A stretch of DNA of 61,969 bases, the filler included, from Candidatus Woesearchaeota archaeon (GTDB lineage Archaea; Nanobdellota; Nanobdellia; Woesearchaeales; BM511): the NCBI GenBank assembly GCA_023266675.1. It is 5 parts of 5 records of this genome, joined end to end, with 100 filler letters (N's around TTAATTAATTAA, not from the genome) between each part and the next. Parts side by side here need not be neighbours in the genome. Positions count along the whole stretch, not along the records: positions 8,606 to 17,061 come from JAHFPP010000059.1; positions 17,162 to 25,453 come from JAHFPP010000060.1; 3 more parts are not named here. One strand, written 5' to 3'. Shown here one piece after another: positions 15,001-18,000 of this stretch. Position numbers: made by a program. The stretch's first letter is position 1. Each line of letters begins with the position of its first letter.

Positions 15001-18000
15001 CATTTAGATAACGTTATCGTCACTATTTTTATATATTTGTATTCTAATAAAATAAATGCGCCGAGGCCGGGAGTTTCACCCGAACACGTTAAGTGTTGCA
15101 GAATTTGAACCCGGAAGGCGTTAGCCAGAGGAGTTTCAAACCTCCACAATACCTAGTTATGTGACCTCGGCATCATAATGAAAATATAATTTTCAAACTT
15201 TACCTTTCGGCAAAGTATCGACACAAATTTTATATACTCTAACACCATCATAAGCTTTGGAGTTTCAAACCAATACAATATCAGGTCATGTGACCTTTTT
15301 TCTTTTTTTAATTATGGAGAATCAGTTTATATACCTCACGCGTCCATGTCCAGTGGGTTTTTTATAGGTTTATTGTCAACAAATAGATGTCCAGTGAGGA
15401 TAGAAACCCACGTTTAATAAGTGGTTAAGTTCAATATGACTCAGTTAATATGGAGATTAAAAAATTTAAAAAAAGTTTATATAGTTTACAAACAAATTTA
15501 TTAAAATGATTACATTAGATGTATTAGTATTTCTAATCTGGGCTCCCATCTTCTTAAGTTTATGGTGTTTAGGAGTTTATTATTGGTTTCGAAGTGTAAT
15601 ATTTGGTTATAAATTAAAAAAAAGGATTAACATTCTTGATTCTTCTATTCCATTTGCATTTTTCATTTTTTTCAATAAACATTCTTTATCCAGAGCATAT
15701 GCTCGTCAATTAAGTAGTAGCTCTCGATTTCTTAAGGTAATCACTTCCTTTGGAGACAAAAAGAAGATTGAAATTTGGTTGGACAATTTTATGGATGTAA
15801 AAGCAATAAGAAACCTTAAGGATGGTCTAACAAATAAATATTTAGACAATATCATCAAGTCTATATCTCTGTTTACTAGAGTATGGTTTTTAGGATTTTT
15901 TGGTTCAATTGTTATTTTTCTAGTTGTTGGTTTAATAATAAAAATTTTTAACTTACCGGTTTCATTTCAATAAGTGTAAATATAAAAAACTCAAAATCGA
16001 ATAAATCTGTTTTTTACAAAAACTTATCAAACCGTAGACATCTTCAAATATTAAGAATACAATAATAAAATTATAAGTTTAGGACAAAAATTTACCCAAA
16101 TTTATATGATAGGAGAAACTAATAAAGTTATTCAAGTTTAGTTATTAGCTAATAAAAGAATAATAAAAAATCCTAAATCTTATCCGGCAATTGTTTGTAG
16201 TCGACTATCTTCCATGGAAGTCCATGCTTGCTAAGTTTTTCCAGGAATAAGTCTGGGTCTAGCTGTTCAACGTTGTAAACACCTTTTCCAGTCCAGACTC
16301 CAGTCATCATCATCATTGCGCCTATCATTGTTGGAACGCCTGTTGTGTAAGAAATTGCCTGTGCGTTTATTTCCTTGTAGCACTCTGCGTGGTCGCAGAC
16401 GTTGTAAATGTAGACTGTTTTCTTTTTACCGTTTTTAACACCTGTGATTATGTTTCCTATCACTGTTTTTCCTGTGTAGTTTTGCGCAAGACTTTGCGGG
16501 TCTGGAAGAAGTGCCTTTAAGAATTTTATTGGCACGATTTTATGGCCTTCAAATTCTACTTCGTCAATCCTTGTTATTCCTATGTTTTCCATTACTCTTA
16601 AATGATTTAGATAGTTCTCGCCAAACGTCATAAAGAATCTTATTCGTTTTAGCCCCTTAATGTTTTTAACCAGTGACTCAAGCTCTTCATGGTATAAGAG
16701 GTAGCTTTCTTTTTTTCCAACAATTGGGTAATTAAATGTGAAATGCAGACTTTTAGAGTCCATAATTGCTGGCGTTTCAATCCATTTGCCGTTTTCCCAG
16801 TGCCGTACAATCTGTGTTACTTCTCTAATGTTTATCTCAGGGTTGAAGTTTGTTGCAAAAGCGTGTCCGTGGTTTCCTGCATTGCAGTCAAGAATATCTA
16901 TGTAGTGAATCTCATCAAAAATATTTTTTTGCGCGTAAGCGGAGAACACGTTTGTGACTCCAGGGTCAAATCCGCAGCCAAGCAGAGCCATGAGTCCTTT
17001 TTTTCTGAATTTTTCCTGGTACGCCCATTGCCATTTGTATTCAAACTTTGCAATGTCTTTTNNNNNNNNNNNNNNNNNNNNNNNNNNNNNNNNNNNNNNN
17101 NNNNNTTAATTAATTAANNNNNNNNNNNNNNNNNNNNNNNNNNNNNNNNNNNNNNNNNNNNGTTTTTGCAAGCTCTTTAAATGATTCCAAAACCTCTGGC
17201 GCGTATTTTTCAAACTGGTCAAGCGCGACACCAGATATGCTGTATGAAACCCTAAATTTTCCGTTTGTGTTTCTTATCAGGTCAAGTATCACTTTGTTTG
17301 TCGGAAGATAACACTTATACGCAACTTTTCTGCACACTTCACTGTTTTTGTGCTCGTCAAAATACTCATGATCATGACCGATGTCAAAAATATTGTATTT
17401 CTTTATACGAAAAGGCTGGTGAACCTGAAAATAGAAGCACACTGAAACCATTTAGACACACCCGAAATTTCCTGTTAAAACCTGATTGTAAATATCAATT
17501 GTTTTTCTTGCAGGGTCGTCAAGATTGAATTTCATGGATTCCCTATTTGAATTTTCTCTTAGCTCATTATACATCGTTTTGTATTTTAGACTCCCAACAA
17601 TTTTGTTTGCCATATCATTTACATCCCAAAAATCACTTTTTAGAGCATTTGTAACAACTTCAGAAACGCCAGACTGCTTTGAAATAAGAATAGGTGTGCC
17701 GTTCTTTATGCTCTCAAGCGCCACAAGTCCAAAAGGCTCTGAAACAGACGGCATGACATATAAATCTGCCATTTTAAAAGCTTTATGGACATCTTTCCCT
17801 TCTAAAAATCCTGTGAAAAGCATGTTGTGAGAAATTCCAAGTTCAGCGCTCCTTTCAATCATACGCGCAAGCATGTCGCCTGTTCCTGCCATAACAAATT
17901 TTGTGTTTGGAACAAAATCAAGAACTTTTCTTGCAGTTTCAACAAAATAATCAGGGCCTTTCTGCATGGTCATTCGCCCTAAAAACAATACAATGTTTCC

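What a model noticed while it worked through the whole genome (the two positions that open the first line are those of the whole stretch)
15059..15405. Each Ser-bodied tRNA is preceded by a private copy of its own 5' half that carries the same anticodon, between two promo [...]
65-125 nt upstream of each Ser-bodied tRNA lies a 40-nt degenerate copy of that gene's D-arm-to-anticodon-loop segment, placed between the CACTGGACA-box promoter and a second TATA box. The copy bears the anticodon of its own tRNA and ends right after the loop, so it is kept in step with the tRNA and is a candidate cis-acting decoy or antitoxin-like RNA.
Evidence so far: Local alignment scores 41-52 in all 5 G000 loci with upstream DNA versus 12-21 for downstream controls; 39-55 in 7 of 27 Ser-bodied loci of other genomes, six of them showing their own anticodon (GAC, GAA, CAG, GAT); 16 of 17 ordinary tRNA-Ser loci score under 29.
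(Added by a program. Inside this text positions count along the whole contig: they may not be those of the stretch shown here. "Call 12" and the like, gene names such as g00115 and contig names such as C1 are that model's own, and its searches are not shown. The text may have been shortened before it was handed on; [...] marks where a part breaks off. The agent that wrote the report below was given it as the finding of a first reader that could run no searches.)

Follow-up and report, generated by a model that had tools for sequence, protein, structure and literature searches.

The report
Antisense RNA guarding a mistranslating tRNA
In a group of tiny uncultured archaea, odd tRNA genes that should put serine in place of oily amino acids each carry a small built-in gene for a matching antisense RNA, which looks like an RNA-only toxin and antidote pair wired to the DNA-repair switch.

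Summary
The copy is real, but it is read from the other strand. The 'second TATA' has its BRE on the tRNA side and points away from the tRNA. The copy's complement starts 21-23 nt downstream (52 of 73 loci) and ends in a hairpin plus U-tract, giving a ~42-nt antisense RNA. Copy-versus-tRNA differences are those that G·U pairs tolerate (G>A 156/770 vs C>T 26/642; T>C 74/548 vs A>G 16/608). Its 5' seed is protected, it prefers its own tRNA, and it matches spliced tRNA. Copies occur at 73 of 100 non-Ser-anticodon loci and 2 of 33 Ser loci. The tRNAs have Ser identity (G73 100/100) but read NUN hydrophobic codons (A35 98/100), in genomes that keep ordinary tRNAs. The upstream CACTGGACA promoter also heads radA in 26 of 30 genomes; the scan noted that box before on other DNA, but my look-ups returned no note on the antisense cassette. 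Best model: a damage-inducible mistranslating-tRNA toxin held by a constitutive antisense antitoxin, logic like tisB/istR-1. Nothing here shows transcription or toxicity. Ten literature searches found no such system.

The parts
15059..15171 (-). Ser-bodied tRNA gene with Phe anticodon GAA (7-bp acceptor stem, G73, long variable arm); proposed toxin
   Evidence: Sequence; family model R1
15135..15137 (-). Anticodon GAA
15073..15103 (-). 31-nt T-loop (59/60) intron with a bulge-helix-bulge (4-bp central helix, two 3-nt bulges); removal gives an 82-nt cloverleaf before CCA addition
   Evidence: read from alignment A2; spliced length; two splicing endonuclease matches in G000
15172..15221 (-). Two small hairpins between the tRNA and the reverse promoter; present at C31 and C57 only, so not needed for the cassette
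   Evidence: z -2.7
15223..15228 (+). BRE-like hexamer of the antisense promoter
   Evidence: sequence; family profile A at -3 97%, A at -4 92%
15229..15236 (+).
15259..15309 (+). Predicted antisense RNA of about 45-50 nt: start at a T-G step 23 nt after the TATA, open 5' seed against the anticodon arm, 3' hairpin, U-tract; proposed antitoxin
   Evidence: duplex with the spliced tRNA -46.1 kcal/mol. Predicted, not observed
15259..15296 (-). The 'private copy' of tRNA positions 5-42 as seen on the tRNA strand (template strand of the antisense RNA; also part of the pre-tRNA 5' leader)
15283..15309 (+). Hairpin (15283-15296) followed by a T-tract (15296-15309): terminator-like end of the antisense RNA
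   Evidence: hairpin near the 3' end in 62 of 73 loci; A-tract before the copy in 67 of 73 against 13 of 292 control windows
15326..15333 (-). TATA box of the tRNA-sense (box) promoter; predicted start about 15303, so a leader of about 130 nt runs through the antisense gene
   Evidence: orientation fixed by the same box+TATA facing radA in 26 of 30 genomes, 0 of 30 on the opposite strand
15347..15355 (-). Proximal CACTGGACA box (radA-regulon element)
15388..15396 (-). Distal CACTGGACA box
32092..32519 (-). Second cassette in the window (contig C33): two boxes, copy, reverse TATA, GAA tRNA with two long introns; its copy follows the spliced anticodon loop
   Evidence: score 46 spliced against 40 unspliced
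13801..15003 (-). Downstream flank: PLP-dependent decarboxylase (carboxynorspermidine decarboxylase-like; that name is my inference)
   Evidence: Pfam PF00278/PF02784
16173..16991 (-). Upstream flank: saccharopine-dehydrogenase-like gene; the cassette and a 155-aa orphan ORF (15506-15973 +) sit between these two genes

Best explanation
The cassette is an RNA-only toxin-antitoxin-like switch. (1) The tRNA has the serine body (G73, long variable arm) but an anticodon for Phe, Ile, Leu or Val. Once RNase P and the splicing endonuclease mature it, SerRS should charge it and it should put Ser at NUN hydrophobic codons, misfolding many proteins. [Anatomy shown; charging and toxicity inferred from known identity rules and the allo-tRNA precedent.] (2) A reverse-facing BRE-TATA promoter just upstream of the tRNA makes a ~42-nt antisense RNA from the 'copy'. 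Its open 5' seed docks on a loop (anticodon or variable loop), the duplex unzips the arm, and a hairpin plus U-tract ends the RNA. This keeps leaky tRNA inactive. [Layout and pairing signature shown; transcription inferred.] (3) G·U-compatible changes keep the RNA duplex while lowering DNA identity between the repeats, which would slow their collapse by recombination. [Inferred; two collapsed alleles seen.] (4) The tRNA is transcribed from the CACTGGACA promoter shared with radA. When that regulon fires, transcription runs through the antisense gene, and the leader, a perfect complement of the antisense RNA, soaks it up, so the tRNA is freed and the cell slows or stops (dormancy or abortive defence). 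[Shared promoter shown; inducing signal and outcome inferred.] My odds by step: antisense RNA made and aimed at the tRNA 0.85; tRNA is a Ser mistranslator 0.75; release by a DNA-damage-type signal 0.55.
For: Direction: BRE-like A-3/R-6 in 61 of 73 loci on the opposite strand vs 17 of 73 on the tRNA strand; T at +22 in 70%, G at +23 and +24 in 48-49%. Register: copy end 21-23 nt from the TATA in 52 of 73, although the part of the tRNA copied varies. End: at least 9 A in 12 just before the copy in 67 of 73 vs 13 of 292 controls; 3' hairpin in 62 of 73. Wobble: G>A 156/770 vs C>T 26/642, T>C 74/548 vs A>G 16/608; 63 loci lean this way, 2 the other, 8 tie. It holds in 37 representatives under 75% identity (79/390 vs 12/330; 34/305 vs 9/314) and at 38 vs 5 tRNA positions, and at conserved tRNA positions (56/275 vs 7/102; 18/140 vs 7/149). 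Seed: 37 of 653 differences at positions 4-12 vs 348 of 1477 further on, and 105 of 657 at the far end. Specificity: own tRNA binds best in 5 of 5 G000 cases (-49.8 to -65.0 kcal/mol vs -14.3 to -33.6 for 12 ordinary tRNA genes) and in 63 of 73 overall. Copies follow the spliced tRNA at C33 (46 vs 40) and L217 (32-36 vs 18-23). Association: 73 of 100 non-Ser vs 2 of 33 Ser loci. In 6 new loci picked without regard to copy or anticodon, 4 of 4 non-Ser have a copy and 2 of 2 Ser do not. tRNA: G73 in 100 of 100, A35 in 98 of 100, 7 acceptor pairs in 70 of 73; A35 in 54 of 55 non-Ser calls from anticodon-blind patterns. Ordinary Phe-GAA, Ile-GAT and Leu-GAG genes, SerRS, RNase P RNA and endonuclease are in G000. 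Promoter: box+TATA faces radA in 26 of 30 genomes, 0 of 30 on the opposite strand, 1 of 30 downstream; box within 400 nt at 44 of 73 cassettes, 0 of 33 Ser loci. Collapsed alleles L050 and L099 lose the reverse promoter together with the 5' acceptor strand. Precedent: Ser-identity allo-tRNAs with Leu anticodons insert Ser and kill E. coli when induced (PMC5389517 section 15).
Against: No transcript, charging or toxicity data. The window's own copy is weak on wobble: 3 of its 7 differences are G·U-compatible. 27 of 100 non-Ser loci score under 30. By eye 6 of these have split or short copies in the same layout and 2 are collapsed alleles, but most of the rest have no copy and a different promoter, so the antisense RNA is not needed for such a tRNA to persist. 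29 of 73 cassettes show no box within 400 nt. 6 of 67 copies differ at the anticodon, L102's copy has GAT before a GAG tRNA, and own-tRNA preference fails in 10 of 73. G>A and T>C would also arise by deamination on an antisense-transcribed strand; only the seed contrast separates this from selection. Folded tRNAs resist invasion by antisense oligonucleotides (PMC6158751 passages), so the target may be the precursor or need a chaperone. Loci are related and the model R1 was built on 6 family members, so P-values overstate. 'DNA damage' rests on co-regulation with radA alone; the regulator is unknown.
Confidence: 0.7

Rival explanations
1. The antisense RNA is real, but the tRNA is not a poison: it is a tunable source of mild, useful mistranslation, or a stand-in or decoy tRNA (charged with its cognate amino acid, or bait for anticodon nucleases) released under stress.
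For: Six such genes in one 1.2-Mb genome, in housekeeping neighbourhoods; a PIN/VapC module is under the same box; a copy-less class exists; archaeal PheRS reads G34-A35-A36 (PMC9976931 passages).
Against: G73 in 100 of 100, whereas archaeal Phe and Leu identity needs A73 and G73 blocks LeuRS in H. volcanii. Anticodons are confined to A35, the swap most damaging to protein cores; a decoy would not need that or a dedicated inhibitor.
Confidence: 0.17
2. One reading: the copy works in the tRNA's own sense, as a cis-acting decoy or as a leader that misfolds the pre-tRNA.
For: The copy lies in the predicted pre-tRNA leader (box TATA ends 23-51 nt before it in 35 of 41 loci); the window copy can fold two small stems; the leader is a perfect complement of the antisense RNA (-79.3 vs -46.1 kcal/mol), so it may be a sponge for it.
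Against: Pairing of the sense copy with tRNA 3' strands would favour A>G and C>T, the mirror of what is seen; the antisense geometry gives the stronger duplex in 65 of 73 loci, the mirror in 5; it leaves the reverse BRE-TATA register and the U-tract unexplained.
Confidence: 0.06
3. The copy is a neutral remnant of tandem duplication or of target duplication by the small hairpin elements of this genome, with strand-biased mutation.
For: Hairpin inserts lie next to two G000 tRNAs and inside introns and variable arms of others; partial tRNA repeats surround some ordinary Ser genes (L183, L019); earlier notes describe end-duplicating elements in this genome.
Against: The gap between copy and tRNA is a conserved promoter, 35-50 nt in most loci, with no element in it; T>C runs against A+T drift; the seed is protected; copies skip introns; the scar-type repeats at L183 and L019 lack the A-tract/22-nt/TATA layout.
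Confidence: 0.04
4. The tRNAs reassign codons (a changed genetic code) and the copy is incidental.
For: Intact cloverleaves with splice sites.
Against: One genome has GAA, GAT and GAG versions beside ordinary Phe, Ile and Leu tRNAs; presence is patchy in the order. I did not align conserved proteins to test codon meaning.
Confidence: 0.02

Closest known systems
Type VIII toxin-antitoxin systems: SdsR-RyeA and CreTA (PMC10767807 passages; PMC8501985 abstract)
   Same: Toxin and antitoxin are both RNAs; opposite-strand arrangement as in SdsR-RyeA; CreT also acts through tRNA and occurs in archaea.
   Different: Here the toxin is itself a tRNA. CreT is a mini-ORF RNA that sequesters a rare tRNA, and CreA is a crRNA-like guide that represses a promoter through Cascade. 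The antitoxin here does not overlap the tRNA body but is a diverged duplicate upstream of it.
tisB/istR-1 SOS-induced type I module of E. coli (PMC2826370 passages)
   Same: Toxin under the recombinase regulon's promoter; constitutive antisense antitoxin from its own opposite-facing promoter.
   Different: TisB is a membrane peptide and IstR-1 binds an mRNA; control is by LexA. Here no protein toxin, target is a tRNA, promoters are archaeal, regulator unknown.
Allo-tRNAs of Acidobacteria and others (PMC5389517 passages and section 15; PMC7609411 passages)
   Same: Ser identity with non-Ser anticodons; missense suppression; lethal when induced in E. coli; often near toxin-antitoxin genes.
   Different: Allo-tRNAs are bacterial with 8/4 or 9/3 acceptor branches and anticodons over 35 codons; these are archaeal 7/5 tRNAs with T-loop introns and A35 anticodons. 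The passages read name no antisense partner ('antisense' occurs 0 times in PMC5389517's main text).
Synthetic antisense oligonucleotides that sequester tRNA-Ser (PMC6158751 passages)
   Same: Designed against the same two windows (D-arm to anticodon loop; anticodon to variable loop), with docking on a loop then strand invasion.
   Different: Man-made, 2'-O-methylated, in vitro; here gene-encoded.
Nematode nev-tRNAs (PMC3333845, search listing only) and Streptomyces tRNA-ProA (recalled, no call)
   Same: Natural tRNAs whose body and anticodon disagree.
   Different: Other domains and amino acids; no antisense partner that I know of (recalled).

Membership tests
Type VIII toxin-antitoxin system | Toxin is an RNA | tested here: inconclusive
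   The unit is a tRNA gene with no conserved ORF downstream; toxicity itself not shown.
Type VIII toxin-antitoxin system | Antitoxin is an RNA encoded within about 200 bp | tested here: met
   At sequence level: reverse promoter, complement and terminator within 130 nt of the tRNA; expression not shown.
Type VIII toxin-antitoxin system | Growth inhibition by the toxin and rescue by the antitoxin | not testable with these tools
   Needs expression in a model archaeon.
CreTA | creA with CRISPR-repeat-derived handles acting with type I Cascade; CreT mini-ORF of rare codons | tested here: not met
   The antitoxin derives from the tRNA sequence and the toxin is a cloverleaf; no Rfam match. cas genes were not searched.
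Type I toxin-antitoxin (tisB/istR-1 like) | Toxin is a small protein whose mRNA is the antisense target | tested here: not met
   The complement matches the tRNA arms and spliced junctions; genes after the tRNA vary.
Type I toxin-antitoxin (tisB/istR-1 like) | Toxin promoter belongs to the recombinase regulon | tested here: met
   Same box+TATA before radA in 26 of 30 genomes; induction not tested.
Allo-tRNA | 8/4 or 9/3 acceptor branch | tested here: not met
   7-bp acceptor and 5-bp T-stem.
Allo-tRNA | Ser identity elements with a non-Ser anticodon | tested here: met
   G73 in 100 of 100, long variable region, non-Ser anticodons; identity rules from PMC9976931. Serylation not assayed.
Split tRNA halves (trans-spliced; features recalled) | A 5' half with acceptor strand and a complementary leader for a separate 3' half | tested here: not met
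   Most copies start at position 4-10 or later and the neighbouring gene is whole.
Diversity-generating retroelement template/variable repeat (features recalled) | Differences confined to adenines of the template | tested here: not met
   Differences are spread over all bases; a reverse transcriptase was not searched.

The most novel reading that the evidence does not exclude
Woesearchaeales archaea carry a family of RNA-only toxin-antitoxin modules in which the toxin is a working tRNA that writes serine at hydrophobic codons, the antidote is a gene-encoded anti-tRNA RNA born from a partial duplicate of it, and the radA (SOS-like) regulon throws the switch: programmed proteome poisoning as a damage or infection response.
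Probability: 0.5. Interest if true: 0.95.

Novelty: categorically new. Interest (0 to 1): 0.88.

Why it matters
If right, this is a natural gene whose job is to silence one tRNA by antisense pairing, and a tRNA used as a regulated toxin. It would give a mechanism for the old, untested link between non-cognate Ser tRNAs and toxin-antitoxin loci, and tie deliberate mistranslation to an archaeal SOS-like regulon. By the formal definition it would be filed as type VIII, but it shares neither parts nor toxin mechanism with the two validated type VIII loci named in TADB 3.0. The whole module is about 350 bp with no protein, so it can be tested directly in a model archaeon or in vitro, and it suggests a compact design for switchable tRNAs. 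Standard tRNA finders missed this gene, so the family is probably unannotated.

Tried and rejected
RNA evidence: no RNA holder listed; the RNA run of the same sample laid no contig on 13000-17061; neither counts for or against. The DNA run X1 matches 13000-15204 without differences but may be the source assembly; the joint it shows at 15248-15326 most likely comes from the C34 paralogue. Rfam: only a chance hit, E 7.7. ARAGORN default misses the gene; at low threshold it gave mostly noise. Viral contigs: 0 matches to the T-loop pattern; none of 19 loose matches is a cassette. The strict cassette pattern hit 9 of 401 genomes of the phylum, all in the window's order; it finds only 1 of 5 G000 loci, so it cannot show absence elsewhere. 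The sigma-70 promoter scan is not suited to archaea. The 111-aa ORF before radA has no Pfam family and only unnamed look-alikes. No paper on the box turned up. Rejected: split-tRNA half, DGR repeat, CreA-like guide, code reassignment, and the reading that the first TATA also points away (radA orientation). Self-folding of the copy's complement is not stronger than that of an exact complement (medians -6.4 vs -7.3 kcal/mol), and the window hairpin is not unusual against shuffles (z -0.9), so the hairpin is weak evidence alone. Rows dropped before counts: 167 matches to 144 distinct; 10 left out for under 100 nt upstream or a cut 5' end; 1 near-duplicate. L100 ('CTT') is probably a mis-parsed Ser gene counted as non-Ser without copy.
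Full report
Setting. The window is five contigs of G000 joined by N runs; the finding lies on C31. 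Relatives with record titles are nearly all Woesearchaeota or Nanoarchaeia, with three labelled Methanosarcinales, so I treat G000 as a Woesearchaeales-type DPANN archaeon (inference). The tRNA gene at 15059-15171 (-) is missed by ARAGORN at default and by Rfam because of a 31-nt T-loop intron with a bulge-helix-bulge. G000 has six such genes: GAA three times, GAT twice, GAG once.

All 5 loci with upstream DNA have the copy, scoring 37-48 against 12-18 downstream and at most 20-28 in shuffles. To widen the set I built a covariance model from 6 genes, searched 150 genomes of the order (I fetched 69 of the top non-G000 places, from 39 genomes) and ran anticodon-blind T-arm patterns over genome and metagenome contigs. 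This gave 167 matches, 144 distinct, 133 usable. A copy scoring 30 or more stands at 73 of 100 non-Ser-anticodon loci and 2 of 33 Ser loci. The two Ser cases have another layout (scar-like repeats; a neighbouring tRNA end). At least 17 of the 150 genomes hold a cassette, a lower bound.

The copy is read backwards. The layout is fixed: A-tract, copy, about 22 nt, TATA, a few bases, tRNA. The TATA ends 6-22 nt before the tRNA in 67 of 73 loci, too close to start it. On the other strand it reads TTTATATA (41) or TTTAAATA (21) with A at -3 in 97% and -4 in 92%; a BRE-like pattern is met in 61 of 73 that way and 17 of 73 the other way (strict form 16 vs 1). T at +22 (70%) is followed by G at +23 and +24 (48-49%). 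The copy's end is 21-23 nt from the TATA in 52 of 73, although the window copied varies: 52 cover D-arm to anticodon or less, 11 anticodon stem to variable arm, 9 both, 1 short. So the start site sets the end, not the loop. The A-tract (67 of 73 vs 13 of 292 controls) is a U-tract on that strand, after a hairpin in 62 of 73. The predicted RNA has a median length of 42 nt. That archaeal start sites lie some 22-24 nt past the TATA box and that U-tracts terminate is established knowledge, recalled.

The differences are those of an RNA duplex. A tRNA G facing a copy A, or a tRNA U facing a copy C, is a G·U pair in an antisense duplex. G>A is 156 of 770 and T>C 74 of 548; the mirror changes C>T and A>G are 26 of 642 and 16 of 608; 63 loci lean this way, 2 the other, 8 tie. 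The bias survives clustering to 37 representatives and is spread over 38 vs 5 positions, and holds at conserved tRNA positions, so the copy is what changed. In G000 23 of 31 differences are of this type, but only 3 of 7 at the window locus. Strand-biased deamination could give the same classes; it would still mean antisense transcription, and would not explain the seed, where 37 of 653 positions differ against 348 of 1477 further on. Each G000 RNA binds its own tRNA best and 12 ordinary tRNA genes weakly; across all loci the own tRNA is best in 63 of 73. Two copies follow the spliced, not the genomic, sequence. As a held-out check, a pattern of TATA plus tRNA 5' end over 401 genomes gave 6 new loci beside G000 and 3 already held: 4 of 4 non-Ser have a copy (one only when spliced), 2 of 2 Ser do not.

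The tRNA looks like a mistranslator. G73 is in 100 of 100 and the anticodon's middle base is A in 98 of 100; in the anticodon-blind set 54 of 55 non-Ser calls have A35, the exception being a probable mis-parse. These anticodons read Phe, Ile, Leu and Val codons. Ser identity rests on the variable arm and G73, not the anticodon; archaeal Phe and Leu need A73 (PMC9976931 passages). G000 keeps ordinary Phe-GAA, Ile-GAT and Leu-GAG genes (read), SerRS, RNase P RNA and splicing endonuclease; G010 and G110 also keep an ordinary Ile-GAT. Phe codons are about 5% of codons in long open frames. Ser-identity allo-tRNAs with Leu anticodons insert Ser and kill E. coli on induction (PMC5389517 section 15).

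The switch. The CACTGGAC box plus TATA occurs 22 times in G000 (1 in the reversed control) and heads KilA-N, Mrr-like, LAGLIDADG, AbrB/MazE-PIN and DUF7557 genes and the radA operon. In 26 of 30 fetched radA loci (30 of 32 matches; G000 included) it faces radA; 0 of 30 lie on the opposite strand. It is within 400 nt of 44 of 73 cassettes, 3 of 27 low-scoring non-Ser loci and 0 of 33 Ser loci. Earlier notes of this scan report such a radA box in other genomes; I read them after my own test. The sense transcript thus starts near the A-tract, crosses the antisense gene and carries its perfect complement (-79.3 vs -46.1 kcal/mol). Induction would both interfere with and titrate the antitoxin (inference). 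This is the logic of tisB/istR-1 (PMC2826370 passages) with RNA parts only. L097 has two cassettes in tandem, each with its own copy; L050 and L099 are collapses that remove the reverse promoter and break the acceptor stem.

Against. No RNA, charging or toxicity data. Most of the 27 low-scoring non-Ser loci have no copy but a different promoter with short repeats (motif in 11 of 27 vs 4 of 73), so antisense control is one of two solutions. 29 of 73 cassettes lack the box nearby. Some copies lag behind the anticodon (6 of 67, and L102). Invading a folded tRNA is kinetically hard (PMC6158751 passages). Loci are kin, so P-values are not to be taken at face value.

Literature. Ten full-text searches listed no paper whose title or abstract start describes a natural antisense RNA against a mistranslating tRNA, or these archaeal tRNAs; I saw listings only for most hits. 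The library lacks most subscription papers and I read no supplements, where such tRNAs might be tabulated. Read: PMC5389517 (passages, section 15), PMC10767807, PMC9976931, PMC11415595, PMC6158751, PMC2826370, PMC7609411 (passages), PMC8501985 (abstract). SdsR-RyeA is known to me only through the TADB passages.

Verdict. Observation confirmed; interpretation corrected from a same-sense decoy to an antisense RNA gene. It works like a type I/VIII toxin-antitoxin pair and belongs to no described family that I tested. Confidence in the whole model 0.7, in the antisense RNA 0.85. Interest 0.88.

Noticed in passing
L153, L157, L173, L184, L078, L068, L148, L152, L084, L158, L079, L181, L081, L162, L182, L073 (upstream 25-75 nt): A second class of non-Ser-anticodon Ser-bodied tRNAs has no copy; many have a sense promoter preceded by short TTGCGGA/TTCCG-like repeats, suggesting another regulator.
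   Followed up: partly
L050 and L099: A-tract runs straight into a copy/tRNA hybrid with a broken acceptor stem: apparent recombination between copy and tRNA.
   Followed up: partly
L038, L041, L060, L061, L093, L107, L138, L147, just after the tRNA: A recurring ORF of about 40 aa follows the tRNA; similar-looking tiny ORFs sit behind box promoters at G000 C1:34099-34233, L013 and L015. No Pfam match for the C1 one.
   Followed up: partly
L041, L053, L054, L057, L092, L093, L050, L102 (variable arm): The same hairpin element of about 40 nt or longer is inserted in the variable arm; may be a spliceable intron or an inactivating insert.
   Followed up: no
L051, L084, L095, L121, L142, L143: Anticodon AAG (A34), which ordinary archaeal tRNA sets are thought to lack (recalled).
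   Followed up: no
L031:2379-3179 (G000 C57): A tyrosine-recombinase gene directly follows the GAT tRNA, so it may share the box-driven transcript.
   Followed up: partly
window 12421-13114 (-): An AbrB/MazE-PIN (VapBC-like) pair lies behind another CACTGGACA box on the same contig.
   Followed up: partly
G000 C76:11577-13231: radA operon behind three boxes, a structured-looking leader and a 111-aa unknown ORF.
   Followed up: partly
window 2107-2204 (+): ARAGORN's 'tRNA-Tyr' reads as an ordinary tRNA-Ile(GAT) with an intron.
   Followed up: partly
L030 (G041 C77:844-1030): A box promoter and A-tract followed directly by a degenerate tRNA-like sequence; perhaps another collapsed cassette.
   Followed up: no
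L183, L019: Ordinary tRNA-Ser genes flanked by several partial repeats of both ends, without the cassette layout; look like insertion scars.
   Followed up: partly
Not checked.
   Followed up: no
window 8558-10531 (-): Gly/Ser/Thr-rich secreted-looking ORF, part of it about 90% identical to a stretch of contig C2.
   Followed up: no
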